Of a stretch of 64,000 nucleotides of DNA, positions 1,478-61,741 are shown piece after piece. Every line of letters starts with the position of its first letter. The stretch's first letter is position 1. Under the pieces are notes generated by a model. That model did not search any database and had not been told where the DNA came from. It worked only from the letters and a program-made list of their open reading frames with translations. Both the position numbers and the translations under genes were made by a program. The stretch is from an uncultured virus (IMG/VR IMGVR_UViG_3300033406_000004) (taxonomy: Duplodnaviria; Heunggongvirae; Uroviricota; Caudoviricetes): IMG/VR virus record IMGVR_UViG_3300033406_000004; one strand, given 5' to 3'.

Positions 1478-1504
1478 TATTTTATTATTTATACTAATTA
1501 TAAA

Positions 1505-1569
1505 TAGGACAATTGACCAAACTTTAATCTGGTTTTATTTTGATTATAGGTCGTTTGACCTTATATTTG
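1505..1569 (+). promoter_or_regulatory. Rightward early promoter with two putative operators
   Basis: Bacteroides sigma-70 pattern TTTG(1539-1542)-N19-TATATTTG(1562-1569); dyads GGACAATTGACC (1507-1518) and GGTCGTTTGACC (1549-1560). Confidence 0.65.
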
Positions 1570-1662
1570 CATTCGTAATCAATCCAACAACTAATAAACA
1601 TACAATTCAACGATTGATATACGAACTGCAAATTTAATAAACAATTTTAAAATAAGAGAAAG

Positions 1663-8220: not shown

Positions 8221-8652
8221 ATGGACAAATTTTTAGCTCAGGAAGTACCTGAGGATGATCGGTTTAATTTCCTAAAGGATAATGCCGATGCTATTGAGGA
8301 GATTGGATATACTCACCGATTCACTCCTGACGAGCTTGCTCAGAAAAAAGAATCTCTCGCTGAAACTTCTATTTCAATCAATGACATTGAGATAGAAAAG
8401 AAAGACGTGATGGAAGGATATAAGGAGCAGCTTAAACCTCTGAATGTGATAAAGCAGACACTTCTTGAAAATATCAAGAAAGGTTCTGAATATGTGGAAG
8501 ATCAGGAATGCGCCAAAATCCTTTATCATGAAGAAAAAATGGTAGGGTACTATAATAAGCTTGGTGAGCTTGTTTATTCGCGCCCGATTATGCCACAGGA
8601 AATGCAAAAAACAATTTTTAATATTAACCATAAAACAGGAACAGAATCATGA
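8221..8652 (+). CDS. Phage hypothetical protein
   Basis: 143-aa ORF, translationally coupled to the next gene. Confidence 0.75.
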   Translation: MDKFLAQEVPEDDRFNFLKDNADAIEEIGYTHRFTPDELAQKKESLAETSISINDIEIEKKDVMEGYKEQLKPLNVIKQTLLENIKKGSEYVEDQECAKILYHEEKMVGYYNKLGELVYSRPIMPQEMQKTIFNINHKTGTES

Positions 8653-9386
8653 GTGAAAACAAATTAAATGTAGTGGTACCGAAGGATTATAACGGTATGC
8701 CCATCGAAGTTGTATTGAGAGAGGGCAAAGCCCCGGTCGCTTTAGACCCGAAAGAACCTATATGCGTGGCTATTAGTGGAATAATTGACTCTCCCTTAAA
8801 ATGGTTGGAAAAGCGAATCGGGCTTATCAATCAGAAATCAGCTAATATCAAGGTAAACAGGGATAATATGATTATTACCTTGACAATTGATGAAACCAAT
8901 TATTATCAAGCAAGTGTATCAGGTAGACTTGAGCTTTCAAAAGAGATGAAAGAATTCGGCATCAATACCGATAATACTTGGGAGCCAAACAAGCTTTCGC
9001 TATTCATCAAGATGCACCGGGCATTCTTTACTGACAAATCCCAAAACATGCAGCTTGTGTCCATCCTTAAAAACTTCAAAGCAAAAGTTAATCAGGATAT
9101 TGAAAGAAGCAAAGAAGAAAATGGCAGTAAGGTAGATAACTACTCTCAAGTGGTTGATTCCAATTTGCCGAAATCTTTCAAACTATTCATTCCTTTATTC
9201 AAAGGCTTTGCAAATGAAGAGATAGAGGTCGAGATCTATGCGGATGTTGACGGGCGGGACGTTTCTCTATCTCTTGTTTCTGCAGGTGCCAACGAAGCAA
9301 TCGAAGAGTACAAAGACAGGGTTATTGATGAACAATTGGAGGCAATCAAAGTTATTGCCCCCGATATCGTAATTATCGAGCAGTAA
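8649..9386 (+). CDS. Phage hypothetical protein
   Basis: 245-aa ORF with ATGA overlap. Confidence 0.75.
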   Translation: MSENKLNVVVPKDYNGMPIEVVLREGKAPVALDPKEPICVAISGIIDSPLKWLEKRIGLINQKSANIKVNRDNMIITLTIDETNYYQASVSGRLELSKEMKEFGINTDNTWEPNKLSLFIKMHRAFFTDKSQNMQLVSILKNFKAKVNQDIERSKEENGSKVDNYSQVVDSNLPKSFKLFIPLFKGFANEEIEVEIYADVDGRDVSLSLVSAGANEAIEEYKDRVIDEQLEAIKVIAPDIVIIEQ

Positions 9387-9423
9387 TAATAAAGTCCTAC
9401 GTCAGGTATGGCGTAGGCATAAC

Positions 9424-9613
9424 GGAATAATGGAGTGTACGGTATGAAAGCTCAGTGAACGGAATGCCAAAGTGCGCATATGGCAGGATGTCACCAAGAC
9501 CGAGCTGAAAGTAGTGGTCCAATAGATTAAACTCGTGTGATAAGCAAAAGCGCACGGTCGAACGACGGAAATCAGACGATACTTGTGCAGGTTCGAACCC
9601 TGCTTATTCCACA
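9424..9613 (+). ncRNA. ~190-nt RNA closed by a tRNA-like acceptor stem and T arm (tmRNA-like ends)
   Basis: GGAATAA(9424-9430)/TTATTCC(9604-9610); GCAGG-TTCGAAC-CCTGC T arm; internal GTGCGC/GCGCAC complementarity. Confidence 0.7.
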
Positions 9614-9740
9614 ATGCAATATTGCAGATTAATCTAACAATGCCGCTGTAAAGGACAGCGTGAGGTGTAAGCCCTCTTTAGGATTTATACTTAACCGATA
9701 CATTTAATTTTAGTGGCCTCGCAAGCGTGCGGGGCAAAAC

Positions 9741-9809
9741 GGGCTATTAGTCAAAGGCAGACATCGGGGTGTTTTCCCGAAAACAGCGGTTCGATTCCGC
9801 TATAGTCCA
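9741..9809 (+). tRNA. Atypical tRNA / tRNA-like RNA, loop GTGTTTT (nominal GTT, non-canonical)
   Basis: GGGCTAT/ATAGTCC acceptor, GTC/GAC D stem, TCGGG/CCCGA anticodon stem, AGCGG-TTCGATT-CCGCT T arm. Confidence 0.7.
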
Positions 9810-9828
9810 CATTCTAAATTTATATTTT

Positions 9829-10167
9829 ATGAAACAGATTAGTAACAAACAGGCTCAAAGAAACAGAGCGGTGGCAAAGATCAAATCTGAGTTACCGCTC
9901 TTTTGTGCTATATGCGGCAGACGAGCAACCGGCGACGGAGCTCATTTACTCCCGAAATCAGTTTGGCCGGAACATTATACAGAGCCAAGGAATCTCGTTC
10001 GTCTTTGCCGGGAATGCCACAGGAGATATGACAATGATATCGGATTCAGAAAACAGCAGGTAAAATTAATCAGGCAGGTTCAATCCTTCGATAAACTTGC
10101 CGCAAACAGATATTTTAAATTATATGAAACAGATTATACACGGGAAATGTCCAAGCAAGTCAAATAG
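9829..10167 (+). CDS. HNH endonuclease (NinG/HNH-like)
   Basis: CAICG...AHLLP...NLVRLCRECH; start re-assigned to ATG 9829. Confidence 0.8.
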   Translation: MKQISNKQAQRNRAVAKIKSELPLFCAICGRRATGDGAHLLPKSVWPEHYTEPRNLVRLCRECHRRYDNDIGFRKQQVKLIRQVQSFDKLAANRYFKLYETDYTREMSKQVK

Positions 10168-12428: not shown

Positions 12429-12495
12429 AATTCATGTTTTATAGAGTTAGTCTTGGAAAATAATAAAAAATCACACTTTGATGATTTATGGGCAT

Positions 12496-12563
12496 AAAAA
12501 AAAGGCTACTCGTCACGAGCAACCAATCTTTGTTAACCTTAAATCTAATACTATGAAAAACAC
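12496..12563 (-). ncRNA. Putative ~70-nt sRNA with own promoter and terminator
   Basis: Minus-strand TTTG(12595-12598)-N19-TATCTTTG(12568-12575); body GTGTTTTTCATAGTATTAGATTTAAGGTTAACAAAG; terminator GGTTGCTCG-TGA-CGAGTAGCC-T8. Confidence 0.65.
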
Positions 12564-12971
12564 ACTACAAAGATATCCATATTCGGGCTCCCACCAAATA
12601 TTCAGTGCATTATAGCTCGATTTATAACATGGTTTAATATATCGAAAGAGCTAGTTAACGTATTAACGTAATATGAATGCGTATTAACTTAAATATGTCT
12701 TGTGATATATTAGATTCCTATCTAAATCAAATTCGCTAAACGTATGAAGCAAATTATAAAATTCATCTTCTGCATGATTGCATTCTTTGTGGCCATGCAG
12801 ATAATAAGCTATGTATTATGATAATAAAAGAAGCAAAGTTAATCGCTGATGATGATTCCCATATAATCATCAATGGGCCGATAGAGACGGATGATCTCGA
12901 GAGAACAAGAAAGGAGTTACACGCTACCTATACGTGCAACCGTATATTATTCATTTTTGAAGGAAAAGCAC

Positions 12972-19033: not shown

Positions 19034-19651
19034 ATGGAGAGATACAAATTGAAAGCATCTGAAAATGAGAACCTTGTTGAAGCTGTTCAGTACACAGGGG
19101 ACAATTTTATAGAATTATGCGCAATCTTCGGAAATGACGCTGAGTTGCGTGAGACCTTAACTCCTATGGGTGATCGTGAAATTTATATTATGATCAAAGA
19201 TAAGACCAATATCATTATTAAAGTCGGTGATTATATTGTAAGGAATTACAGGGGAAATATTATCGCATGTGATAAACAATGCTTTATGGATAATTACGAA
19301 AGAGTAATCTACGGAGAAGGTAGAATAGTCATTAAGCATGAACAGAAAGAGCCAAGCGGTAAAGTGGAAACAACTTTCCCCGCAATAACAACAGGCAAGA
19401 ATTTTGGAGAAGCTCTTGAAGCCGTAAAGAAAGGTAAAGGAATGCGATTGCCATCATGGAAAACGGATGTTGTAATACGATGCTGCTTTCCGAGAAAAGA
19501 AATATATAATGTGACTAAGGATGGAGAATCGGGATGCTACACCCCGCCTATGACTGCGCCATATTTGTATGTTGAATCTCGATTCGGCCGAGTTCCATGG
19601 AAAGAAACGATGATTGAATTATTTGCCGAAAATTGGGAAGTGGTAGAATGA
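19034..19651 (+). CDS. Two-domain protein with C-terminal DUF2829/Tad2-like domain (candidate anti-defence nucleotide sponge)
   Basis: NFGEALEAVKKGKGMRLPSW...PYLY...VPW....ELFAENWEV; N-terminal VEAVQYTG...GDYIV...F...YE domain. Confidence 0.7.
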   Translation: MERYKLKASENENLVEAVQYTGDNFIELCAIFGNDAELRETLTPMGDREIYIMIKDKTNIIIKVGDYIVRNYRGNIIACDKQCFMDNYERVIYGEGRIVIKHEQKEPSGKVETTFPAITTGKNFGEALEAVKKGKGMRLPSWKTDVVIRCCFPRKEIYNVTKDGESGCYTPPMTAPYLYVESRFGRVPWKETMIELFAENWEVVE

Positions 19652-21426: not shown

Positions 21427-23175
21427 ATGTCATTCTTCCCGCCACTATCCGTTTCAGATGCAATTGAAAAGATTGATTACAATCAGTATTTACTTCCAGC
21501 TATTCAGAGGGATTTTGTATGGTCAAGTAGTAAAATTGAAATGTTGTTTGATTCTCTAATGCAAGGTTACCCTATTGGCTCAATGCTACTTTGGCGAGTT
21601 TGTGGGAAAAATGCAGAAAACCAAAGGTTTTATGGGATGTTGAAGAAATATCGAGAGCGCTATTTGATTCGTTCCGAGGAAGTTTCAACGAAGAATATAC
21701 CAAGCTTTGAGGTTGTTTTAGACGGACAACAAAGATTAACCGCCCTTTATATAGGATTAAAAGGATCTTATGCTTATCATGGTTATAACTTAGCTTGGAA
21801 GGACAATGAATACTCTATTCCAACAAGGTATTTATATCTAAATCTGAAATATAAGAAAAACAGAAAAAATGACCTAAACGATAGTGATGACGATAAGATG
21901 TATGAATTTTCTTTTTTAAAACCGGCTGAAGCTGAAAAAAATGATGCTAATAACAATTGGTTTAAAGTTGGAGATATTCTAGGAATTAAAGGTACAGCAC
22001 AACTATCAGCATGTTTTAAAAAGCATAATATCATAGAAAATGAAGCTCAAGAAATTTTATGCAAATTACACGACATTGTGCATTTAGAAAAACTAATTCA
22101 TTATTATTTGGAAGAAAGCTCTGATTTCACAAGGGCTCTTAATATATTCATTAGAATAAATTCTGGTGGAATTACATTGAGCTATTCAGACTTAGTAATG
22201 TCAACAACTATAATGGGTTGGACAAACTTAGATGCAAAAAAAGAAATAAATGGACTGGTAGATGAACTTGTAAGAGAATACGGATATTCTGTAAATAAAG
22301 ACTTTATTCTTCGAACCTATCTAGTACTATATAATGACGACATAAAGTTCAGAGTTAATAACTTTAGCGTCAAAAACGCCAAAGAATTTGAGAAACATTG
22401 GAGCAACATAAAGTTAGCAATTAGAGAGGTTTTTCAGTTGGTTACAGACTTTGGTTATGCCCCAAACGCGTTAACTTCTCTAAATGCGCTATTACCAATT
22501 GTATTTTATTTATACAAGGCAGATAGAATTGAAAATTTTTGCCAGAAAATAGCCTATAAAAAAGACAGATCGTTAATAAAAAAATGGCTTCACATAGTAC
22601 TTTTACACCAAATATTTGGAGGTCAAGCAGAAGGCGTTTTAAAAGCAATCAGAGATACAATCAAGAAAGAAATTGCAAAAGGAACTGAGCTTTTCCCTGC
22701 AAGTGCAATAGCAACAAGACTCTCTAAAACAAATAAATCAATAACTGTTGATGAAGAGTTTATCCAAGGGCTTTTATATACAAGCAAAGATAGCAGATAT
22801 GCTTTTCCTATTTTAGCCCTACTTTTTCCTCAGTTGGATTACAAAAATAGAGATTTTCACTTAGATCATTGTCATCCACTTTCCGTCTTCACGGAAAAGA
22901 AATTGAAAGCAAGAGGTATTATTCTCGATGATAGCAACAAAGAACATTTCACTAACTGGGATTATTTCAATTCAATTATCAACTTGCAGATGCTTGATGG
23001 AAATGAAAATAAGTCCAAAAATGCAAAGAGCTTAAATACTTGGGTCGCTGAAAATTCAATTCCATTGAAAAAATACTATCTCCCCGATGAACTTGAATTA
23101 AAAGACTTTCCAATATTTGTAGAAAAAAGAATAGCTTTATTAACTAAAGAATTAACCGAAATTTTAGTATTATAA
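21427..23175 (+). CDS. GmrSD-like type IV restriction protein (DUF262 + C-terminal HNH/DUF1524)
   Basis: LPAIQRDFVW, YPIGS.L.W, VLDGQQRLT, IF.RINSGG; C-terminal DHCHP...NLQML...N..KN. Confidence 0.85.
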   Translation: MSFFPPLSVSDAIEKIDYNQYLLPAIQRDFVWSSSKIEMLFDSLMQGYPIGSMLLWRVCGKNAENQRFYGMLKKYRERYLIRSEEVSTKNIPSFEVVLDGQQRLTALYIGLKGSYAYHGYNLAWKDNEYSIPTRYLYLNLKYKKNRKNDLNDSDDDKMYEFSFLKPAEAEKNDANNNWFKVGDILGIKGTAQLSACFKKHNIIENEAQEILCKLHDIVHLEKLIHYYLEESSDFTRALNIFIRINSGGITLSYSDLVMSTTIMGWTNLDAKKEINGLVDELVREYGYSVNKDFILRTYLVLYNDDIKFRVNNFSVKNAKEFEKHWSNIKLAIREVFQLVTDFGYAPNALTSLNALLPIVFYLYKADRIENFCQKIAYKKDRSLIKKWLHIVLLHQIFGGQAEGVLKAIRDTIKKEIAKGTELFPASAIATRLSKTNKSITVDEEFIQGLLYTSKDSRYAFPILALLFPQLDYKNRDFHLDHCHPLSVFTEKKLKARGIILDDSNKEHFTNWDYFNSIINLQMLDGNENKSKNAKSLNTWVAENSIPLKKYYLPDELELKDFPIFVEKRIALLTKELTEILVL

Positions 23176-23328: not shown

Positions 23329-24618
23329 ATGGAAACAATAAAAGTCAAATACAAAATTATCCCTAAATGCAAAAAAAAACTAACCGAAATCATGGATACA
23401 ATTTGTAGAGATATCAGTTGGGGTACATCTATACCAGAGCTTTCTGCTGCTAAAAATTCGATCCAAAAAGACAAACAATTAGGAAAATATAATCCAGACT
23501 ATTATCAGCCAAGCTATACAATTGACCCTGATGGCTTAATTGAAGTTGAATTCAAGGCCAAAATGTTTAATTTTGAGCGAGAAGGAATGAATCATTTTAT
23601 TGGGACTATCGCTGGTGACATTACAACAAATAATGATATTGAAAAGATTGAAATTGTTGATATAATTTTCGACAAAAGTAATTTAAACAACTTCTTTAAG
23701 GGCCCCACTTCTGGAATAGATATTTTAAAAAATGAAATACTTGCTCCAACTTTGGAAGGGAAAAACAGACCCATAGTAGCGTTTACTGTAAAACCAAGAT
23801 TAGGGTTGACAATTAATCAATACAAGCAAATCATAGAGGAGGCTTCAATGAGTGATATTGATATTATAGAAGATGATGAAAGGCTTGTGGATCCAGATTA
23901 TTGTTTATTCAAAGATAGAGTTAAAGTAATAGGAGAGGTTATTAAAAAAGGCTGTAAATCAAAATTCTCTGTGAATATAACTGGAAATCCAGATTTATTA
24001 GAAGAAAAAATAGAATATGCCTATGACACAGGCATAAGAATATTTAAACTAGATGTTTTAGTCTCTGGATTTGATGTATTAATAAAGCTACGGAATATTC
24101 TAGAAAAATATCCCGAAAAAACAGCAATTACAGTTTTTCCTGATATAAAATCATACCGAAATATACGAAGAGATGTTATTTTGAAGTTATCAAGACTTTG
24201 TGGAGGTGATATTATTTATGCGGGTTCGACAATACTTTCTAGAATGGGGACAATAGAAAACCCAGATGAAATTATAGCACAAGATATTCCTAAACTAATA
24301 CATACACATCGAACACTATCTGAGTCAATAGGAAATATCGACAAAAGAACCTTACCATCGATGACACATGATATCAATCTAAAAAATGTTGAGCTTTTAA
24401 TTTACGGCATGCGTATTTATCAACATCATGACTACGCTTTATTCATAGGCGGTGGAATAAGTGGATTCCCGTATGAATACAGTATAAAAAAATCCTGTGA
24501 ATTATGGATGAAAATGATAAAACATGCAAGCGAAGTTTCCTTACAAGGAAAGAAGTATATAAAAGAGATAAATGATGAAACCTTTTTCAATTTAGATAAT
24601 GAAATTGATTGCTTATAA
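23329..24618 (+). CDS. RuBisCO large-subunit-like protein (divergent form IV/RLP)
   Basis: FKGPTSGI, RPIVAFTVKPRLGL, DIIEDDE, F.DR, VNITG, KLSRLCGGD and IGGGISGFP are colinear with RbcL motifs FQGPPHGI, RPLLGCTIKPKLGL, DFTKDDE, GGG..GHP. Confidence 0.88.
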   Translation: METIKVKYKIIPKCKKKLTEIMDTICRDISWGTSIPELSAAKNSIQKDKQLGKYNPDYYQPSYTIDPDGLIEVEFKAKMFNFEREGMNHFIGTIAGDITTNNDIEKIEIVDIIFDKSNLNNFFKGPTSGIDILKNEILAPTLEGKNRPIVAFTVKPRLGLTINQYKQIIEEASMSDIDIIEDDERLVDPDYCLFKDRVKVIGEVIKKGCKSKFSVNITGNPDLLEEKIEYAYDTGIRIFKLDVLVSGFDVLIKLRNILEKYPEKTAITVFPDIKSYRNIRRDVILKLSRLCGGDIIYAGSTILSRMGTIENPDEIIAQDIPKLIHTHRTLSESIGNIDKRTLPSMTHDINLKNVELLIYGMRIYQHHDYALFIGGGISGFPYEYSIKKSCELWMKMIKHASEVSLQGKKYIKEINDETFFNLDNEIDCL

Positions 24619-28497: not shown

Positions 28498-29199
28498 TTA
28501 TATCCTTTTATAATTAAGTTCAAACCGTGTTGTAGTCAGTATAGTACCTGCCAAAGCATCACGCAATTGCAAGTGATGCAATTCATCAAGCATATCACTG
28601 ACTATCTTCCGGACACGAGGTGGGTATTTCTGTGCCAAAGATACCATTTTTTTGAGTTCCTCTAATGGCAAAGCAGCGAAATACTGCCCCTTTACTCTAT
28701 CATACACATCATATGGGCTACAGCCAGGAATATGGTTTATATCCTTTAGCGCATCCAATAAACGTAAATACAAAATTGTATTCGCATCATTGAAATCATC
28801 ACCGTACGCCTTTACACACTCTATTTCCAAATTCTTAAAACGAAACGAGCGAACAGGATTTGGAGTTGCTATCGTTATTGTCGTAGCTGTTTGCTCGGTC
28901 AATCCCAATTTGTTATAAATATATGCACCGCTCAAATAACCGTTTAATTTCTGGATAATATAACGGAATTGTTCATCTTGGTAAACAGGGAGTATCCCCA
29001 AACCTAATTTAGATTTTCTAGGCCGATAATAGGCACCACGCTCTGCACGTACAAGGGTTCCTTTCTTACTCTGTTCTGAAAGGGCAACTGCAACATTCGC
29101 CAATTTATTAGCAGGATACGACAAGTCACGACACGTAAAGATGCGCCCTTCTTCTATTTGCTCTATCTGTGCGATTATGTCCTGCCTAAATGTTTTCAT
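28498..29199 (-). CDS. DUF6088 / AbiEi-like antitoxin-type transcription regulator
   Basis: Winged-HTH LS...KKG.LVR..RG.YY.P, GYLSG..IYN.LGLT.Q, LDALKDI..IP; start ATG 29199. Confidence 0.7.
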   Translation of the reverse strand: MKTFRQDIIAQIEQIEEGRIFTCRDLSYPANKLANVAVALSEQSKKGTLVRAERGAYYRPRKSKLGLGILPVYQDEQFRYIIQKLNGYLSGAYIYNKLGLTEQTATTITIATPNPVRSFRFKNLEIECVKAYGDDFNDANTILYLRLLDALKDINHIPGCSPYDVYDRVKGQYFAALPLEELKKMVSLAQKYPPRVRKIVSDMLDELHHLQLRDALAGTILTTTRFELNYKRI

Positions 29200-29365
29200 A
29201 AAACAACACTCTTTTCTTTTTTGCAAAGATAATAAATTAAGTATTCACATGCAAATACATAATACTTTTCTTTGAAAATTTTAGGTAAAGTGACTGAATA
29301 AAAAGGATGCAGTAATACATTTCTTTAGCATCCACAAATTTATATGATAATTACAGCAATAATCC

Positions 29366-44282: not shown

Positions 44283-44669
44283 ATGAGTGAAAAAATTAGC
44301 GAAATAAGGAATTCGGATGTTGTGAATGCGTACTTTGATTCAATGAAAAGCATCAAGAAAGAATCGCCTTATTCTTCTCAGGAAGATGTCATTTCGGACG
44401 CTCTTCAAAAAGGAGCTCCCAGATTCTACACAACCTATGAAAATGCCAGAAGATTTGTATCATTAATAGCAAGGGGGAAAAATCTTCCTCTGGTTAATGA
44501 AAATAAGGTGGAGATGTACCACGAACTGTTCAGGCGATTTTTATGTAAAAAGAACAATAATTGCGGGTATCTCATCTTAGAACAGATTATAGAAGAAGAA
44601 GCGCCCTCTTTTTACCTTGACTTCGAGACTTTCCGTGGAATAATATACAAAACATTAAATAAGAAATAA
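44283..44669 (+). CDS. Hypothetical protein with duplicated APRFY/APSFY motif (possible DNA-binding protein)
   Basis: GAPRFYTT.E.A and EAPSFYLD.ET internal repeat. Confidence 0.7.
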   Translation: MSEKISEIRNSDVVNAYFDSMKSIKKESPYSSQEDVISDALQKGAPRFYTTYENARRFVSLIARGKNLPLVNENKVEMYHELFRRFLCKKNNNCGYLILEQIIEEEAPSFYLDFETFRGIIYKTLNKK

Positions 44670-45157
44670 TGCCGTTCATACTCATACTGTTTTTCTTTTA
44701 CGCCATTGGTTCATTCATAGACATGAGGGCGTTTGGCATTAGTACAACTTCTCCATGGTGGTGTTTATTCACCTATAGCTTTATCCATTTATCATTCACG
44801 CATCTGCTTGTGAACGCGTTCGTATTCTTATCATACTGGCGTAAGATGAAAGGGATCATAAATATATATTTCTTTATTCCTCTTATCATCACGGTGCCCG
44901 TAATAGCCGCCATATTAAGTGCCCACAAAGATATTACAGTCGGAGCATCGGGCATTATTTACGCAATTATCGGCATATACATAGTAGCCTTTCCATTACC
45001 AAGGAATGTTCTAATCAAATTTATAACTTTAATTGTCCTAAGCTTTGCGTTGACCTGCTTTTTGCCATCGGTGAATACAGGTATCCACATATACAGCTTT
45101 CTTCTATCTTTAGTTGTAAGCCTTTTATGCAGGAGGTTTATTTATGCTAAATACTAA
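44669..45157 (+). CDS. Rhomboid-family intramembrane serine protease
   Basis: FTYSFIHLSFTHLLVN (H-x4-H-x3-N), VGASG catalytic Ser, His in VNTGIHIYSF; ~6 TM helices. Confidence 0.9.
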   Translation: MPFILILFFFYAIGSFIDMRAFGISTTSPWWCLFTYSFIHLSFTHLLVNAFVFLSYWRKMKGIINIYFFIPLIITVPVIAAILSAHKDITVGASGIIYAIIGIYIVAFPLPRNVLIKFITLIVLSFALTCFLPSVNTGIHIYSFLLSLVVSLLCRRFIYAKY

Positions 45158-49250: not shown

Positions 49251-52200
49251 CTATTTTTTATCCATTTGGTCAAGCTCGTCCAACATTTTAAATTTCATGT
49301 CGGCTATTTCGTTTTTGATCTTATCCGAAGAGCCTTCATCGGCCAATTGTAAAAGAGAAGCGATATCATCGATTTGATTTTTGTAGGCCTTGACAATCAT
49401 CATACGACGCTCTTCTTCATCGCTTTTCTTTTCGATATAGCTATCGCCCAAATCGAACCCCTGCCTAAGTCCCCGTTTGTATTCCCGGTCCCGGCTCTGG
49501 CTTTCTTCGAGCAACTTCACATATTTCTGATACCTTTCATTTACGACGGAATTTGGCATGGCCGGATCGAATTGATAGCCAAACCTGTTAACCACAGGAA
49601 TATCTTTCAGCGCCACATCTTCACCAACCAATGGGCCGACAGTAGATTTTACCGTCTGCAGGATTGTTTTTCCTACGCCTCCCATATAAGAAAAGAACAA
49701 GTGTTCCACAGCCCCCGGATTGAGTAACGGAGAATCGGCCCATCCCTTTGTCGCAAAATCCCCACCTGTCATAGAATTGAGTGCCTGAGAAGACTTAACC
49801 AGCATTTGAGAAGTTCCTTTATAAACCTTCCTGTACTCAGGTATGTACGTATTATACTCGTTTTTCTTCACGATAGGTCTACCGGTAAATGATCTGTTAG
49901 TGATATAAGCGTCCACAAATGGTTTTATCGCATCGGGAGTCAGATTCACAAAAGCGGCTCCAACCAAACCATTTTCACCTTTATCAGAACCCTCGATAAA
50001 ATTTCGGGGACTGGCATCGAGTAGCTTGCCCAGAACATCGGCACCCACATTCCTGTCATTGTATTTTCCTCCGACGAATTGAGACAAGATATCTCCAACC
50101 CCGAAGAATGCGCGAAGTTCAATAGGAAGTGGAATTGTCACAAAGTTGTCTTCTCCGAAAAACGGGATAACAATATTGTTCTGCCTTATGTAATCAGGCA
50201 ACTTATCGTAATCATCATCTCCACCCGAGAGTATGTTATACATCAATGGCATCATGGCCCCCAACATCATCCAAGAACCCATGGCGATAGATGTACGAAC
50301 AGGATAGTTCTTGAATGTATGAGAGAAGTTATACATGCCCTGTATGCCGGCATTCAAAAAGAAGTAGGACATATCAGCCAGCCAGTTGCCTCCGGCTCCG
50401 GATCCTTTTCTATTGAAGTTAACGGATAGCTCTTTTGCGTCCTTAACACTTCGAACGATGCTCCTTCCCTCTTCCCTGGAGGCTATGTATGCGGAGAATC
50501 TGGACATATCTTCCGCCCAGCGGTTACATCCGCTCAAACCTTTAGCGATGACATGGAATGCATCAGACATTTTCCCGGTCCCGTTGGCCTTATCGATCTC
50601 TCTCTTAATCTCTTTTTTATATTGCTCATAAGATGTCAATGCGACAAATCCTGTTTCTCCACCGTTAGAAAGAAATTCATCAAAGTATTTATCGTACTTG
50701 CCATCTCCCTCTTTTCCTGTAAGATATCGGGTTATAGTAGACGAAGCTTCAGGTATAGCCTTTATAAAAGCAAAATTATAAGAAGCATCCTCTCGAATGC
50801 CATTCATGGTCATGGCGTAAATCATATCCCTGCTTAGGTTGGAAAGAACGAAAGCCGGGTTACGGGTGGTGAAGTTTTGCGTCATGAATCGTTTAATATC
50901 ACCCTGTGTCTTGACAAGCTTGTTATCAAAAGGCTTCACGTTATTAAGTCCATTCACAGCCTGAGCCACGCGGGGATCACCATTTATGTAGATCACTAAA
51001 TCCTTCCCGTTCTCTTTGACTTTTATCGCATGCTGATCAGCTTGCCACTTTTTAATTGGAACATCAAGAGATAGACCTTTGGTGACTTTCTTCGCCAGAC
51101 CACTTTTCTCCAGTTCCTCCATTTGCTGATTAAATCTTTCCAGCGTATCCAAATCCTCTTCTCTGTTACCCGTAAGTTCCGGGACAACTTCCTGCCATAC
51201 GTCTCCGTTATTCCTGTACCACACCGGAGCAATCGTAGCCATATTGGTAGGATAGTTCCTGACCAGAGAAAGAAGATGCTGTTTCATCTCGTTTTTATTT
51301 CCGATAAATACGGCACTCTCGGCCATTGAGGCTATACTTGCCAACGGATCACCCGATTCACTCTTACGGCCATTTGCTTTCATAAGCGGGTTATTGACCA
51401 CATCGTTTTCATCCTTGAAAAAATAGTCATAGAAGTCACCGGCGGTCTCTTCGCTCCATGCTCTCAGGGGAATATAGTATTTATACATTTCAGATATCTG
51501 CTTCTTGGTAGCTTTATCTATGCATCCTGAACTCAATTGTTTGTTAAGGCTAAACGTGTTTGCCCTACGGACTGAATTCCACAAAGATTCCACATCTTTA
51601 CTGTCGTGATCCTCTTCAAATTCTTCAATGAATAGGACGATCTCGTCTTCAAGAAGAGGATCGGTTTCCTCCTGTTTGAATAATCTATGTTGAAGGCCGG
51701 TCAATCCGGCATAATCAACGCTTTGTTGTTTAATGGCGTAGTTGGACAGGTTTTTTATGGCTGCTTTCTTTGCTGTTTCGACAGTCTGATCAATTTTCTT
51801 CTGAAATTTATCAATATCAGCTTGGGTGGTACCTTTCTTCGATCTCAAAGACATCAGATCTTGTTGCAGTCCGTTCGCTATGCCAAGAACATGCTCATCC
51901 ATCTGCTTTTGTTTGCGCTCGATAGCGGCATTACGCATGTGCAGGTTTCTCTCTATACCATGTTTTGCCTTCATGTAAGACTTGACCAATTCCGCATCAC
52001 CCAGCTTTACGACGGCATTCACCAGAGGTTTAAGATAATCGTTCTTAAATTGTTCGATCTCATAAGTAGAGCGGGAAGCAATGGTGTTCTCGTTCGTGTA
52101 AGCATCGCAAAACTCTTCTATCTTTCTGCCCGTATGTCCGGATACCAATTCCTGAAACCGGCGAAGAGGTAACATCCTGTCTTGCCATCCTTCCCTAAAC

Positions 52201-55200
52201 CTGTCATTCCTCAGTTTTGCGGAAAAATCCTTTTTCTCTTCATCCGTGAGCTCCACGGCTTCTTCGGCAATCTTTATCTGGTCCCCTATATTCTCCTTTG
52301 ATAATGTGTTTGAATCAATTACGGGAGGTTTCTTCTCTTCATCGGGTATTTCCCTGAATAGTTTATCCCGTATATCCAGATCGCGCATCTTTTTGTCTAT
52401 GCGCTCTTCGATGGTACCGTTTTCCAAATTATTCCTGCTTCTCCAAAGAAGATACTTAATGTCATTGTCTGACATTTCAAGTTCTATGCCCGCCTTACGG
52501 AAGAGTTCTTTTATTGCGCTGATTACTTTGTTCCAGATGGAAGGATCAGTTCCCGATTCGGCTTGTTCAGCCAGATATTCTTCGGTAGCGGTTGCGATAT
52601 CATAATTGTATTTACTGATCGCCTGTTCAGAGACATGCTTTTTGATATCATCCGGAAGAGATTTAAATATATCATCTATGGTATCATCGAACTTATCACC
52701 AAATAATCCCCTTAATCCCTTATGGCCTGCTATCTCATGCAACATCGTACGCTGCGCATCAGCAACGCTCGTAGCATTGGGGAGTACGATAACGATCTCA
52801 CCTGTTTTGGGATCAAACCAGCCTTTAGAAGTCTTTTTGCGAAGTTGCAGGGACGCATTGTCATCTGTTATCTCATTCATATCCTTTATGAGCCGAACAG
52901 GGGTATTCAATTTATCAGATAGCTCCGATACGGATTTGGAAATGGCCTCCTGCTCTTTACTTTCCGGTTTGGAAGTGAGGTCCCTTAAAAGATCATTCAG
53001 CGAATCCGCACTCCTATGGTAAAGAGCCTTGTAGTCTTGATTGCTGACGCCTCCATTTTTATCAAGTTTCTTGTAATATTCCGTTTGATCGTTAAGCCTG
53101 TCTATGAACCCTTGGATATATTCCTTTGCGGCATCGGTTGCGTCTTCTTTCAGAGCGTTAAGTGTGTTTATGAGGGTAGAAGCCTCTAGCTCGAAATCTG
53201 TAACAAAGGAATTTGGAGTATATTCACTCTTACCGCTTTCTTGAGAATATTTAAAATCCGGCTTTCTTCCATTTATATTTCTACCAAATGAGGCCGATAA
53301 ACGGTAAACCCGATTAGCCACATTATCCATGGTTGTTTCAGAGCCACGATAACGAATGTCCGTATTATCATTGAGGTTTGAGTCTTTGCCATTAGGAGCT
53401 TTCATAAACGAGCCGTCGGCTACAGCTTTATCCTTTATTTCTTCAAGTTCATCGGTTTCACGGAATAAAGGAGCATTAGAATTACTTTCTTGATCGGTTG
53501 TAATAGCTGCGGCCTCAATCTTTCTATAATCCGCAAATGGCTTTTCTTTTTTAGTGTCAGTAGACAACCATTTGTCAAACACATCTTTTGAAACACCGGT
53601 AATATTTCCTAGGCCGGTCCACCCTTTTTCATAGTTCGCGAGGTAGGCATCACGGGCCTCTTGCTCGGAATTGAAACCATACATTACCTTATGTTCATCA
53701 AAGGAACCATCAGGATTAACCTGATCCACAACATAAACTGTTTCAGGATTAAGATTCTCGCCTAAGAACACGTCTATATGATCACCGTCTTTCCCTTTTG
53801 TACCACGAAAATAGCCATAGCTATTATTCATTTTAATACTCCAAGGGGTACCTGAATTGTCAATGCCTTTGCGCTCGCTTCCCTTAGGATTTTCAATAGT
53901 CACGTCGTATCCTCCGATTTTCACGTGTCCCATCTTATAGTTCCCTGCTTCTTTCTGGGCTTCGGAAGGATTGGCATCTACCTTCTGTTCTTCGTCGGAT
54001 AGTTCTTTAGCTTTTACTATACGAGAAGCATAATCGAGTATCGACTCATCTGTCTTTATTTCAGGAGCGACAAAATTCGGTTTTTCCGATTTATCTTCAT
54101 TACTTTCCTGAGGAAGAGGAGAAACTATTTCATCTTCTCGATTTTCGCTTTCTGCTTCTCTATCAGACTCTTCAGAGCCATCTGTTCTATTTCGTTCTTG
54201 CTCTCCTTCAAGTCTTTCTCCATCTTTCGAAGCGTCATTATCTCCGCTATCTTCACCTTGTCCATCTTCTTCTTTATTTAATTGTGAATAAATCTCATTA
54301 ATTTCATCTATGCTCATGCCTTCATAAAGCATCTCAGCATACTCGGCAGCTTCAAATTCGTCTCTCATGGATGACAAGGCCTGCATTTGCTCATCATCCA
54401 AGAAATCTATGTAAGATTGAGTCTGTCGCTCGTAGGCAGGTATCATGTCGCTTTCTACAGCATCAGAGAAAGCTTTCTTCTGAGCTTCAGTCTCAATCAT
54501 ATGATTGGCTTTCTTATACTCAAGATACAACTTACCTGTATTGGATTCAGGACCACCTACAGAGAAACCCATTTCGGCAGAAGCAATCTCGCTAAACCTA
54601 CCCGATAATTTCTTCTGTAAGTCAGAAGTTGTACGCACATAATTAGTCGGATTACTAAGCATGAAGTCAACAATTTCATTCTCTGTCACTTCATTGCCGA
54701 AGCCGCTTAATTCCTGTGCTAAGGTATCAAGTTCTTCACCGTCTTTTCTCAACCACGCCTTAGCAAAGGTACCATTTATTTTATTTCGGTCTCCAAAACG
54801 ATTGAATGAATTAGTATTCATTTTTCTTCCTAATAGCTCACGTTGCCATGGAAGAAGGATGTTTTCGTGACTGGATTGTTCCTTAGCCACGCCATAAGCT
54901 CCGGCCAGCTCAATCGGATCATCCGAATTGTCGGCAGCCCAATCGGCGTATTCCTCATCGGTGGCTATATCATGAGGAGCCTCATTCTCTTTTTGTGGAG
55001 ACAACAAACTTTTGATGCTTTCCAATCTGGACAGCTCTTGGTTGATACGTTTCTTTGTACGTGCCTTCTCTATGGCATTACCCTTTTTCTCCGCATGGGA
55101 AAGTTGCTTTTGTTGGTTGGCAATGTCTTCTTCCACAATAGAGAGAGCATCTTCTCCGAATTCCTTCTTAAGTGCTTTAGCGTACACGGCAGGATCGCTT

Positions 55201-61525: not shown

Positions 61526-61667
61526 AATTTAAAATGTTCAGCGACAAGCACAGCGACAAGCAGATTTGCTCATGTACGGGTAAGTTTGCCGTTTTTTTTA
61601 AATATCACAACATTTTCCGAGAAAGGAAAAGAGCCGTAAATCGTTGATTTACAGCTCGTTACAAAAG

Positions 61668-61741
<74 letters not shown>

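What the first reader, a model, noticed from the sequence alone, without database searches (positions are those of the whole stretch)
9424..9613. ~190-nt RNA with tmRNA-like ends but no alanine identity
Seen: perfect 7-bp acceptor and perfect T arm, no D stem, ~150-nt interior with a GTGCGC/GCGCAC pair. Established: acceptor + T arm without a D stem is the tmRNA tRNA-like domain, but tmRNAs are about twice as long and use G3-U70, whereas this has A3-U70. Inference: a distinct tRNA-capped ncRNA class or a minimal tmRNA-like RNA.
Basis: partly seen in the sequence, partly recalled or inferred. Interest (0 to 1): 0.7.

Follow-up and report, generated by a model that had tools for sequence, protein, structure and literature searches.

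The report
Oversized tRNA-shaped RNA of Bacteroides phages
This is a real 188-base RNA gene of gut Bacteroides phages that folds like a complete tRNA, but its anticodon loop is replaced by a long hairpin tipped with a self-pairing sequence and its side arm is greatly enlarged, so it cannot read codons, it is not a tmRNA, and its job is unknown.

Summary
Window 9424-9611 (+) is a genuine structured RNA gene in a Bacteroides prophage. The GTGCGC/GCGCAC pair is not conserved (1 of 52 relatives).

I collected 71 distinct relatives from gut viromes, metagenomes and two Bacteroides genomes. In them, 27 of 40 modelled base pairs show compensatory changes and 97.2% of cells pair; slid controls give 4-9 pairs and 34-48.5%. 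A model built without the window's subgroup finds exactly 9424-9611 at 129.8 bits.

The fold is a five-arm, class-II-like cloverleaf. The anticodon arm is a 40-nt hairpin whose 11-nt loop carries a palindromic hexamer in 70 of 71 sequences. The variable arm is a 91-nt branched domain.

It fails every tmRNA test applied here: no G3-U70, a D stem is present, and neither ARAGORN nor Rfam calls it. It matches no Rfam family.

My best reading is a non-decoding tRNA mimic, cut out of the early phage transcript by tRNA-processing enzymes and probably dimerising through a kissing loop. Its target is unknown. I rate it a new variant of a known kind.

The parts
9424..9611 (+). The whole RNA gene as modelled (188 nt, including discriminator A9611).
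   Evidence: CM R1 gives 158.4 bits. Leave-out CM R2 gives 129.8 bits, E 1e-36, with the same ends.
9424..9430 (+). Acceptor stem, 5' strand (GGAAUAA).
   Evidence: Pairs with 9604-9610. In the family, 6 of 7 pairs show changes on both sides and 99.8% of cells pair.
9433..9453 (+). D arm: stem GAGU 9433-9436 with GCUC 9450-9453, and a 13-nt loop containing GG (9441-9442).
   Evidence: Read from the sequence. Helix 2 has 3 of 4 pairs with changes on both sides. The model-based alignment shifts the 3' strand of the window-type rows by one column; these rows account for most of the helix's unpaired cells.
9455..9494 (+). H1, a 40-nt hairpin in the place of the anticodon arm. Lower stem GUG-A-AC with GU-CAC. 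Internal loop GGAA 9461-9464 facing GGAU 9486-9489. Upper stem UGCCA 9465-9469 with UGGCA 9481-9485. Apical loop of 11 nt at 9470-9480.
   Evidence: Helices 3 and 4 have 8 of 10 pairs with changes on both sides. There is no 7-nt anticodon loop.
9473..9478 (+). Self-complementary hexamer UGCGCA in the H1 apical loop, the candidate kissing-loop dimerisation site.
   Evidence: 70 of 71 distinct relatives carry a 6-nt palindrome here: UGUACA, UGCGCA (extended to AUGCGCAU in three rows) or GCGCGC. A random 11-mer carries one with probability 0.08, and the loop-loop duplex is -13.1 kcal/mol.
9495..9585 (+). Enlarged variable arm (91 nt). Base helix CAAG 9495-9498 with CUUG 9582-9585. Conserved internal loop ACCG / GACGAUA. 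Second helix CUGA 9505-9508 with UCAG 9572-9575. AGUA 9510-9513 and GAAA 9568-9571. The distal part is swappable.
   Evidence: The base helix is invariant in 71 of 71 sequences, so it is untested by covariation. The second helix has 3 of 4 pairs with changes on both sides. Several distinct distal modules appear among relatives.
9534..9556 (+). H3, a hairpin inside the variable arm: CGUGUG with CGCACG, loop AUAAGCAAAAG.
   Evidence: Helix 7 has 4 of 6 pairs with changes on both sides and 87.7% of cells pair. The hairpin is absent from 10 short-arm relatives.
9587..9603 (+). T arm: GCAGG, loop UUCGAAC, CCUGC.
   Evidence: Helix 8 has 3 of 5 pairs with changes on both sides and 99.7% of cells pair.
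9604..9610 (+). Acceptor stem, 3' strand (UUAUUCC). No CCA is encoded after A9611.
9396..9417 (+). Context: a 9-bp hairpin just after the stop codon of the upstream gene. It is kept whether or not a tRNA-like cassette follows.
   Evidence: A role as a 3'-end protector of the upstream mRNA after RNase P cleavage is my inference only.

Best explanation
Window 9424-9611 encodes a non-decoding, tRNA-derived structured RNA that belongs to a family confined, as far as I searched, to temperate Bacteroides phages and prophages.

Fold: a five-arm, class-II-like cloverleaf.
- The acceptor, D and T arms are ordinary, and the GG and UUCGA loops are placed to form the tRNA elbow.
- The anticodon arm is replaced by a 40-nt hairpin. 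Its 11-nt apical loop carries a self-complementary hexamer.
- The variable arm is enlarged to about 90 nt. Its base is invariant and its tip is exchangeable.

Proposed mechanism:
1. The RNA is made as part of the long early (recombination/replication) transcript. This step is inferred.
2. It is released like a tRNA, by RNase P at the 5' end, a 3' endonuclease after the discriminator, and CCA addition. This step is inferred from the fold, the lack of its own promoter motif, and tRNA or tRNA-like genes abutting it.
3. Two molecules join head to head through a kissing-loop contact between the palindromic loops. This step is inferred from sequence conservation.
4. The dimeric tRNA look-alike acts by binding something that normally recognises tRNA shape, as a decoy, sponge or scaffold. 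This is the least certain step and the target is unknown.

Shown here: the gene is real, the fold, the absence of an anticodon loop, and the conserved palindrome.
For: Family and structure:
- 71 distinct sequences were aligned by covariance model. Of 40 modelled pairs, 27 show changes on both sides and 97.2% of cells pair. Slid controls give 4-9 pairs and 34-48.5%. None of 500 shuffles reaches the observed values (the same picture with 52 sequences).
- Leave-out model R2 finds the window copy at 129.8 bits.
- Many G-U pairs occur on the + strand, for example UG in 34 cells at pair 93-175 and GU in 62 at pair 11-34. This fixes the transcribed strand.

Non-decoding:
- The loop of H1 has 11-12 nt in all 71 sequences.
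- ARAGORN makes no call.
- Rfam's tRNA model gives 16.7 bits against a 29-bit cut-off.

Palindrome:
- It is present in 70 of 71 sequences.
- Four forms occur. On trees built without the loop columns there are at least 6 changes of state, and only one of them loses the palindrome.
- The central CG-to-UA switch needs two substitutions, and no intermediate is seen among the 71.
- L428 has a differently built H1 stem but keeps AUGCGCAU.
- The loop-loop duplex is -13.1 kcal/mol for the window and -9.6 for the main type.

Processing:
- No TAnnTTTG motif lies on the + strand between 1569 and 15274. This Bacteroides -7 consensus is recalled, not taken from a call.
- In relatives another tRNA-like gene ends 4-5 nt upstream of the RNA and a hairpin followed by a run of U follows it.
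- In the window a tRNA-Asn lies 130 nt downstream.

Cassette behaviour: the same slot holds this RNA, a 114-nt Leu-like RNA, or nothing.
Against: - I have no direct evidence of transcription, of the RNA's ends, of CCA addition or of dimerisation. Only assembled contigs could be laid, and they cannot show any of these.
- Predicted folding energy is not better than shuffled sequence (z = -0.42).
- The base helix of the variable arm never varies, so covariation does not test it.
- The alignment was fitted to the model structure, which leans the pair counts towards that structure.
- The sequences are closely related and many differ by few bases. The trees are weakly supported (25 of 48 inner forks are open) and modules recombine, so the count of independent palindrome changes is rough.
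- One sequence type (L136) lacks the palindrome.
- I found no conserved protein partner. An RlmN/Cfr-like gene is present in only 3 of 48 records.
- The discriminator varies: U in 36, A in 15 and G in 1 of 52. This argues against one fixed aminoacylation identity and leaves the decoy target open.
Confidence: 0.6

Rival explanations
1. Carrier model. The tRNA frame is only a processing and stability scaffold, a natural counterpart of the engineered tRNA scaffold. The active parts would be the inserted modules, such as the H3 loop GAUAACCAA or the swappable tip of the variable arm, acting by base pairing or protein binding unrelated to tRNA mimicry.
For: - The distal variable arm comes in several unrelated modules on one constant frame.
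- A second, Leu-like frame next to it carries hypervariable interiors; the elements aligned are 122-187 nt long overall.
- The H3 loop sequence is conserved across modules.
Against: - The most conserved parts are H1 and the base of the variable arm, not the swappable tip.
- Ten short-arm members lack H3 altogether.
- I did not look for a target complementary to the loops.
Confidence: 0.17
2. A chargeable, non-ribosomal tRNA. The RNA would be aminoacylated, for example by seryl-tRNA synthetase, which recognises a long variable arm rather than the anticodon (recalled). It would then donate or sequester an amino acid outside translation.
For: - Intact acceptor stem, elbow and long variable arm.
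- No anticodon would be needed for serine identity. This is established knowledge that I recall, not something tested here.
Against: - The discriminator varies among U, A and G.
- Acceptor pairs 1-72 to 5-68 vary freely.
- The D arm does not resemble those of the host's Ser, Leu or Tyr tRNAs.
- I found no transferase gene linked to it.
Confidence: 0.08
3. Punctuation only. The element would matter solely as an RNase P / 3'-endonuclease cleavage signal that separates the upstream and downstream halves of the early mRNA. The excised RNA itself would have no function.
For: - It lies inside an operon, with a conserved hairpin just upstream that could protect the new mRNA 3' end.
- It sits at a slot where other tRNA-shaped cassettes alternate.
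Against: - A plain tRNA would do this job.
- The palindromic loop (70 of 71), the invariant CAAG..ACCG / GACGAUACUUG segment and the covarying H1 are unexplained.
Confidence: 0.07
4. A minimal tmRNA-like RNA, one of the first reader's two alternatives. It would be charged, enter stalled ribosomes with SmpB and tag or release peptides.
For: Acceptor stem and T arm at the two ends of a long RNA. A relative's T hairpin matches the tmRNA model locally at 16.6 bits.
Against: - G3-U70 occurs in 2 of 71 sequences and the window has A-U.
- A D stem is present.
- ARAGORN finds no tmRNA in the window or in any locus scanned.
- No Rfam tmRNA match appears in the window at E up to 10.
- The interior has non-triplet indels and module swaps.
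Confidence: 0.02
5. An interrupted but functional decoding tRNA. Introns or insertions would be removed to give a normal tRNA.
For: The frame is tRNA-like. Rfam's tRNA model aligns a neighbouring Leu-like relative (TL-2) with a 122-nt insertion at 31.1 bits.
Against: - No group I intron or other ribozyme family matches at E up to 10.
- There are two separate expansions, one in the anticodon arm and one in the variable arm.
- No 7-nt anticodon loop can be read on either side of H1.
- The inserted parts themselves covary and are conserved.
Confidence: 0.03
6. A DNA-level element, such as an attachment-site remnant, an operator or an origin, rather than an RNA.
For: - The hexamer is a DNA palindrome.
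- The element lies near the replication initiator gene.
- Prophages often carry tRNA fragments.
Against: - G-U pairs are frequent on the + strand only.
- The GGAA/GGA(A/U) motifs flanking the palindrome are direct, not inverted, repeats.
- The integrase and its tRNA-Arg site are 50 kb away.
- Both halves of every tRNA arm are present and covary.
Confidence: 0.03

Closest known systems
Bacterial class II tRNAs (Leu, Ser, Tyr): cloverleaf with a long variable arm
   Same: - A 7-bp acceptor stem.
- A short D stem with a large GG-containing loop.
- A 5-bp T stem closed by G-C with a UUCGA loop.
- A helix between the anticodon and T arms.
- Helices abut with 0-3 linker bases.
   Different: - There is no 7-nt anticodon loop, and a 40-nt hairpin with an 11-nt loop takes its place.
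- The variable arm is 91 nt in the window, against roughly 15-25 nt in host class II tRNAs that are 82-90 nt long overall.
- The Rfam tRNA score is 16.7 bits against a 29-bit cut-off.
- The frame is not close to any host Leu, Ser or Tyr tRNA.
tmRNA (SsrA), tRNA-like domain
   Same: The acceptor stem and T arm are formed by the two ends of a long RNA.
   Different: tmRNA has G3-U70 alanine identity, no D stem, pseudoknots and a tag reading frame (recalled). This RNA has a D stem, A3-U70 or G3-C70, no ARAGORN or Rfam call and no conserved frame.
Phage T4 RNAC and RNAD: small stable RNAs from the T4 tRNA gene region
   Same: Phage-encoded small RNAs that are transcribed among tRNA genes and have no known role. 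I read this in passages of PMC3014915 and PMC9697503.
   Different: The host, the phage type and very likely the folds differ.
HIV-1 dimerisation initiation site (DIS) kissing loop
   Same: An apical hairpin loop with a 6-nt GC-rich palindrome flanked by purines. Two family members carry AAGCGCGCA, which I recall as the subtype B DIS loop. Palindromes are exchanged without intermediates.
   Different: The loop has 11-12 nt rather than 9. The context is a tRNA-shaped phage RNA, not a viral genome. Dimerisation here is only inferred.
Bacterial Y RNA-like YrlA (tRNA-mimicking module bound near Ro/Rsr)
   Same: A non-coding RNA with a tRNA-like acceptor/T/D module, also found in phages. From PMC4201824 I saw only the search listing and the start of the abstract; the details are recalled.
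   Different: In YrlA the RNA ends lie in the Ro-binding stem rather than in the acceptor stem (recalled). No Rfam Y RNA match appears at E up to 10. No Ro/TROVE-type protein appears among the 59 window ORFs I scanned.
Engineered tRNA scaffold for expressing recombinant RNA in E. coli
   Same: A foreign RNA module replaces the anticodon arm of a tRNA so that the chimera is processed and stabilised like a tRNA. From PMC3753655 I saw only the search listing and the start of the abstract.
   Different: That is a laboratory design. This would be a natural counterpart with two expanded arms and conserved inserts.

Membership tests
tmRNA | G3-U70 wobble pair (alanine identity) | tested here: not met
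   The window has A9426-U9608. At pair 3-70 the family has GC in 61, AU in 8 and GU in 2 of 71.
tmRNA | tRNA-like domain without a D stem | tested here: not met
   A 4-bp D stem is present and covaries: 3 of 4 pairs show changes on both sides.
tmRNA | Recognised by tmRNA detectors (ARAGORN, Rfam RF00023) | tested here: not met
   ARAGORN finds 0 tmRNA in the window and loci. Rfam shows none in the window at E up to 10, and only a 17-nt T-hairpin match at 16.6 of 47 bits in L084.
tmRNA | Conserved tag reading frame with a resume codon | tested here: not met
   Relatives differ by 1-4-nt indels and by whole-module swaps in the interior. I did not run an explicit ORF-conservation test.
tmRNA | SmpB binding and alanine charging | not testable with these tools
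   Needs biochemistry.
Canonical tRNA (Rfam RF00005) | Acceptor, D and T arms of the cloverleaf | tested here: met
   Helices 1, 2 and 8 pair in 95-99.8% of cells, and 12 of 16 pairs show changes on both sides.
Canonical tRNA (Rfam RF00005) | 5-bp anticodon stem with a 7-nt loop (U33, anticodon, purine 37) | tested here: not met
   A 40-nt hairpin with an 11-12-nt loop stands there in 71 of 71 sequences.
Canonical tRNA (Rfam RF00005) | Score at or above the family gathering threshold; called by ARAGORN | tested here: not met
   16.7 bits against 29, E 1.4, and only over 9516-9611. ARAGORN makes no call.
Class II tRNA architecture | An extra helix (variable arm) between the anticodon and T arms | tested here: met
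   Helix CAAG/CUUG (invariant) plus helix CUGA/UCAG (3 of 4 pairs with changes on both sides) close a 91-nt domain. It is far larger than in host class II tRNAs.
Group I intron-interrupted tRNA | Match to group I intron models inside the tRNA | tested here: not met
   No intron or ribozyme family at E up to 10 in window 9300-9900 or in L084 3600-4300.
Kissing-loop dimerisation hairpins (DIS-like) | Self-complementary hexamer exposed in an apical loop | tested here: met
   70 of 71 distinct sequences. Chance expectation is 0.08 per random 11-mer.
Kissing-loop dimerisation hairpins (DIS-like) | Physical dimer formation that depends on the loop | not testable with these tools
   Only a duplex energy could be computed: -13.1 and -9.6 kcal/mol.
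YrlA / bacterial Y RNA | Rfam match; Ro (Rsr) gene nearby | tested here: not met
   No Rfam match. No Ro/TROVE-type domain among the 59 window ORFs scanned with Pfam.

The most novel reading that the evidence does not exclude
Gut Bacteroides phages carry an unrecognised class of cargo-bearing tRNA cassettes, of which this RNA is the best-conserved member. It would be a two-headed tRNA mimic: two L-shaped tRNA bodies joined end to end by a DIS-like kissing loop. Host tRNA enzymes would release it from the early transcript. It would bind or bridge a tRNA-recognising host factor, for example a tRNA-cleaving defence nuclease or a modification enzyme, to the phage's benefit.
Probability: 0.25. Interest if true: 0.85.

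Novelty: new variant of a known kind. Interest (0 to 1): 0.66.

Why it matters
Phage tRNA genes are usually explained by codon supply and, more recently, by escape from tRNA-cleaving defences (recalled). This is a widespread, strongly constrained tRNA-shaped RNA that cannot decode.

Its distribution in the collections searched:
- 95 metagenome stretches, 94 of them family members.
- Two Bacteroides genomes.

Standard tRNA, tmRNA and Rfam tools all miss it. It therefore points to a use of the tRNA shape outside translation in the phages of a dominant human-gut genus.

The conserved self-pairing loop gives a simple hypothesis that can be tested on the bench. Next to it lies a second tRNA frame with hypervariable inserts, and different tRNA-shaped cassettes alternate in one genomic slot. 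Together these suggest that nature uses tRNA frames as carriers for other RNA modules, as RNA engineers do.

It also shows that annotation pipelines overlook a whole size class of tRNA-like genes.

Tried and rejected
- **RlmN/Cfr-like partner.** In L084 an RlmN/Cfr-like radical SAM gene (TIGR00048, E 3.7e-23, far below its cut-off) lies in the same operon as the RNA. I looked for it in 48 records, 47 with the RNA plus L010. It was found in 3 of 48 and in 0 of the 13 records that are at least 90% complete. I rejected it as a general partner.
- **Conserved neighbour.** I fetched 14 regions. My regex located the RNA in 11; L314, L315 and L323 (short-arm types) were dropped. A junction resolvase gene (RusA, NinG, or phrog_824/5702) follows within two genes in 7 of 11 and not in 4 of 11. 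This describes a nin-like location, not a partner.
- **Expression.** Only assembled contigs of four runs could be laid. One metatranscriptome contig (X20, 400 nt) covers 9429-9605 at under 90% identity. The other runs cover parts only. None of this shows transcription, ends or CCA.
- **Isolated phages.** There was no match to the RNA in 50,697 phage records, either with the window region or with a main-type copy. The single hit, to Bacteroides phage BS-TP3, lies in the spacer and not in the RNA.
- **Own genome.** The window's assembly is not held. Its nearest record, G001, carries the identical stretch.
- **Bacteroidaceae genomes.** Model R1 found the RNA in 1 of 151 sampled genomes (G050) plus one weak 105-nt Leu-like hit. 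Only 17 candidates per genome were scored, so this is not evidence of absence.
- **MFE pairing next to the acceptor.** The tmRNA-style long-range pairing of 9433-9438 with 9579-9584 in the MFE fold is not kept in main-type relatives, so I replaced it with the D stem.
- **Naive stem finder.** A script picked another D-stem register (UGGU/GCUA), and its 3-70 count used a wrong index. I ignored both. The covariation, and the variants GAUC/GAUU and GGCC/GGCU, support GGUC/GACU.
- **Local hairpin CUGUU/AACAG.** This alternative to the second variable-arm helix is absent from the L095-type sequences, so I dropped it.
- **Literature.** Five full-text searches returned no description of this RNA. Fremin et al. 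2023 (PMC10690425) predicted 8,495 candidate structured RNAs from IMG/VR. None of seven contig ids from my loci occurs in the four readable supplement files. The zip files that hold the alignments, and some PDFs, could not be read. The family may therefore be listed there under a number.
- **Earlier notes of this scan.** None for this genome or this sequence.
Full report
**What is at the coordinates**

- GGAAUAA (9424-9430) pairs perfectly with UUAUUCC (9604-9610).
- The acceptor stem is followed by A9611.
- Just before the 3' strand lies a textbook T arm, GCAGG-UUCGAAC-CCUGC (9587-9603).
- Pair 3-70 is A-U.

Standard detectors miss it.
- ARAGORN calls only tRNA-Asn (9741-9810) and tRNA-Arg (61667-61741) in the window, and no tmRNA.
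- Rfam at gathering thresholds gives only those two tRNAs and a FopS sRNA.
- With relaxed thresholds the only overlapping match is the tRNA model at 16.7 bits (cut-off 29, E 1.4) over 9516-9611, which is essentially the T arm.
- The minimum-free-energy fold is no more stable than shuffled sequence (z = -0.42). Thermodynamics alone says nothing here.

**Setting**

The window is a temperate Bacteroidota phage or prophage.
- It encodes RecT, an exonuclease, NinB, an SNF2 helicase, RusA, a replication initiator, terminase, a P22-like portal, tail proteins and an endolysin.
- An integrase (60317-61525) sits next to the host tRNA-Arg.
- Host genes begin at about 61.8 kb.

The RNA lies in the early recombination/replication block.
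- Upstream is a phrog_11501 gene (8649-9386) followed by a 9-bp hairpin (9396-9417).
- Downstream are tRNA-Asn, a gene with weak HNH-domain matches (its homologues in L308, L317 and L320 match NinG) and RusA.
- No Bacteroides-type -7 motif (TAnnTTTG, a consensus I recall) lies on the + strand between 1569 and 15274.
- The generic promoter and terminator scan shows nothing above chance around the RNA.

The RNA is therefore probably made as part of a long early transcript. That is an inference.

**Relatives**

| Search | Result |
|---|---|
| Exact 3'-end pattern in viral contigs | 4 close copies, about 81% identical, with a divergent middle |
| Loci around homologues of the upstream gene | More distant copies |
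| Gapped pattern in metagenome contigs | 95 stretches, 94 of them family members |
| One genome per species | 2 Bacteroides genomes (B. ihuae, Bacteroides sp. UBA1317) and one chance match |
| 50,697 deposited phage genomes | No copy |
| 151 sampled Bacteroidaceae genomes | 1 copy, with limited sensitivity |

In all I obtained 71 distinct sequences of 156-194 nt.

**Structure**

I wrote a structure from compensatory changes seen by eye and from RNAalifold. I built covariance model R1 from it and realigned all members.

On 71 distinct sequences:
- 97.2% of 2,777 cells form standard pairs.
- 27 of 40 pairs show changes on both sides.
- With the 3' partners slid by 1-3 columns, only 34-48.5% of cells pair and 4-9 pairs show such changes.
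- None of 500 column shuffles reaches the observed values.

| Helix | Pairs with changes on both sides |
|---|---|
| Acceptor | 6 of 7 |
| D stem | 3 of 4 |
| H1 lower stem | 3 of 5 |
| H1 upper stem | 5 of 5 |
| Second variable-arm helix | 3 of 4 |
| H3 | 4 of 6 |
| T stem | 3 of 5 |
| CAAG/CUUG at the base of the variable arm | 0 of 4 (invariant, untested) |

Caveats:
- The alignment is fitted to the model.
- The sequences are close kin.
- The window-type rows have the 3' strand of the D stem shifted by one column in that alignment. This produces most of the unpaired cells in helix 2. Read directly, they pair as GAGU with GCUC.

Frequent G-U pairs on the + strand fix the transcribed strand.

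As an independent check I built model R2 from 47 sequences that exclude the window's subgroup.
- It finds 9424-9611 at 129.8 bits, E 1e-36, as the only match in the window.
- It also finds the five other window-type copies.
- It finds nothing in L010, which lacks the element, and nothing in the chance locus L307.

**Anatomy in the window**

| Part | Coordinates | Detail |
|---|---|---|
| Acceptor stem | 9424-9430 / 9604-9610 | 7 bp |
| D arm | 9433-9453 | Stem GAGU/GCUC; GG in the loop |
| H1 | 9455-9494 | Lower stem with a bulged A; internal loop GGAA/GGAU; upper stem UGCCA/UGGCA; 11-nt loop AAGUGCGCAUA |
| Variable arm | 9495-9585 | CAAG/CUUG; conserved ACCG / GACGAUA internal loop; CUGA/UCAG; an AGUA...GAAA pair of motifs; hairpin H3 at 9534-9556 |
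| T arm | 9587-9603 | GCAGG-UUCGAAC-CCUGC |

- The helices abut with 0-3 linker bases, as in a class II tRNA.
- The AGUA...GAAA motifs remind me of loop E / bulged-G motifs. That is recalled and not tested.
Only the window, 1 of 52 sequences, has such a complement. It is not a conserved feature.

**The H1 loop**

A self-complementary hexamer sits in the apical loop in 70 of 71 distinct sequences.

| Loop form | Rows |
|---|---|
| UGUACA | 47 |
| UGCGCA | 21 (three extended to AUGCGCAU) |
| GCGCGC | 2 |
| UGUAGA (not palindromic) | 1 |

- A random 11-mer of this base composition holds a 6-nt palindrome with probability 0.08.
- On trees built without the loop columns, the loop state changes at least 6 times, and only one change loses the palindrome. 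The trees are weak and modules recombine, so this count is rough.
- Switching between CG and UA at the centre needs two substitutions, and no single-step intermediate is seen.
- GCGCGC arises by one change that shifts the palindrome by one base.
- L428 has a differently built H1 stem that lacks the GGAA internal loop, yet it keeps AUGCGCAU.

Two adjacent bases cannot pair within one loop. Selection for self-complementarity therefore points to contact between two copies, as in a kissing-loop dimer.
- Loop-loop duplex energies are -13.1 kcal/mol for the window and -9.6 for the main type.
- A DNA-level reading, a dimeric protein site, is unlikely. The conserved GGAA and GGA(A/U) blocks around the palindrome are direct repeats, not inverted ones, and the rest of the element behaves as RNA.

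**What it is not**

It is not a tmRNA.
- G3-U70 occurs in 2 of 71 sequences.
- A D stem is present.
- No detector calls it.
- The interior has non-triplet indels and swapped modules.

It is not a decoding tRNA. No 7-nt anticodon loop exists in any member.

It is not an intron-bearing tRNA. There is no intron or ribozyme match, there are two separate expansions, and both are themselves conserved.

**Genomic behaviour**

The element acts as a cassette.
- In L010 (upstream gene 91% identical) tRNA-Asn follows the hairpin directly, with no such RNA.
- In a second B. ihuae prophage, the same hairpin and the same downstream spacer plus tRNA-Asn flank a different, 114-nt Leu-like RNA.
- In L308 the RNA is followed at once by NinG.

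In many main-type phages a second tRNA-shaped gene ends 4-5 nt upstream, and a hairpin followed by a run of U follows the RNA.
- That second gene has the frame GGUGGUA...UACCACC, a Leu-type D arm and a hypervariable interior. The elements aligned are 122-187 nt long.
- Rfam's tRNA model scores it 31.1 bits with a 122-nt insertion.

In 7 of 11 relatives with 3-kb flanks, a junction resolvase gene lies within two genes downstream. That is a nin-like position, where lambdoid phages often keep tRNA genes (recalled).

I found no conserved protein partner. The RlmN/Cfr-like gene beside some copies is present in only 3 of 48 records.

**How it most likely works**

Shown:
- A conserved tRNA-shaped fold without an anticodon loop.
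- A conserved self-pairing loop.
- An invariant base and an exchangeable tip of the variable arm.

Inferred:
- Excision from the early transcript by RNase P and a 3' endonuclease, with CCA added afterwards. No CCA is encoded.
- Head-to-head dimerisation.
- Action as a tRNA look-alike that binds a tRNA-recognising factor.

The last step is a guess. The variable discriminator (U, A or G) and the freely varying acceptor pairs argue against a single aminoacylation identity.

**Comparison with known RNAs**

- **Class II tRNA.** It shares the frame but fails the anticodon-loop and score criteria.
- **tmRNA.** It shares only the placement of the acceptor stem and T arm at the ends of a long RNA.
- **T4 RNAC and RNAD.** These are small phage RNAs from a tRNA region whose roles are unknown (passages read in PMC3014915 and PMC9697503). 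It shares that status, but I compared no sequences.
- **HIV-1 DIS.** It shares the loop design (recalled).

Fremin et al. 2023 (PMC10690425; passages read) report thousands of candidate structured RNAs from IMG/VR, including tRNA-like ones. I could not find my contigs in the readable supplements, and the alignment archives were unreadable. Prior listing under a bare number cannot be excluded.

Earlier notes of this scan describe oversized tRNA-shaped genes in other phages. They are unchecked leads that fit a wider pattern.

**Verdict**

This is a real, new RNA family: a new variant of the known kind "tRNA mimic". The tmRNA reading is wrong. The alternative reading, a distinct tRNA-capped class, is right. 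Function remains open, and the dimer hypothesis can be tested directly.

Noticed in passing
L084 3749-3934; also L136 150-292, L088 607-749(-), L154 121-289, L097 640-806(-), L103 640-761(-): A second tRNA-shaped gene family (TL-2) lies directly upstream of main-type copies. It has a constant Leu-like frame (acceptor GGUGGUA/UACCACC, a D arm almost identical to the host tRNA-Leu, a normal T arm) and a hypervariable interior; the elements are 122-187 nt long. Rfam's tRNA model scores it 31.1 bits with a 122-nt insertion. ARAGORN misses it. It is not present in the window.
   Followed up: partly
L366 about 279-392 (G050:C3:350879-350992): A second B. ihuae prophage has a different cassette in the window RNA's slot. 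Flanked by the same upstream hairpin and the same downstream spacer plus tRNA-Asn, it carries a 114-nt Leu-like tRNA-shaped RNA that appears to have an 8-nt anticodon-type loop (CCUAGUGC) and a long variable region. It scores 36.9 bits on the tRNA model.
   Followed up: partly
L368 about 1503-1607(-) (G146:C133:2642-2746): Another Bacteroidaceae genome holds a 105-nt Leu-like tRNA frame with a roughly 35-nt insertion closed by an AAACC/GGUUU stem. Model R1 found it weakly (26.5 bits).
   Followed up: no
window 9741-9810 (+) and spacer 9612-9740: A phage tRNA-Asn(GUU) of 69-70 nt (49.7 bits) lies 130 nt downstream of the RNA. A GC-rich hairpin (9716-9735) precedes it. The spacer and the tRNA are conserved in a B. 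ihuae prophage. Part of the spacer matches Bacteroides phage BS-TP3 (86.8% over 51 nt).
   Followed up: partly
window 12493-12563 (-): A full-length FopS-family sRNA (Rfam RF04319, 74.6 bits against a 56-bit cut-off) is encoded inside the prophage's replication module. A TAnnTTTG motif lies just upstream at 12568-12575 (-).
   Followed up: no
window 23329-24618 (+): A 429-aa ORF in the prophage matches the RuBisCO large-chain catalytic domain (PF00016, E 2.3e-21). It is a RuBisCO-like protein in a phage accessory region.
   Followed up: no
window 19034-19651 (+), 21427-23175 (+), 28498-29226 (-): Candidate defence and counter-defence genes in the prophage: a Tad2-like Thoeris anti-defence domain (E 8e-11), a GmrSD N-terminal domain protein (E 2.4e-33), and weak, below-cut-off matches to DUF6088 and AbiEi_4 (E 2.8e-5 and 8e-4).
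   Followed up: no
window 49251-57932 (-) and 44669-45157 (+): A 2,893-aa virion-associated giant protein with DarB-like and endolysin-like segments (PHROG hits). A rhomboid-domain ORF sits next to the terminase gene.
   Followed up: no
L084 2801-3583 (+) and 3604-3738 (+): In a few related phages a truncated RlmN/Cfr-like radical SAM gene (260 aa) and a 44-aa ORF precede the two tRNA-shaped RNAs in one operon. This holds for only 3 of 48 records.
   Followed up: yes
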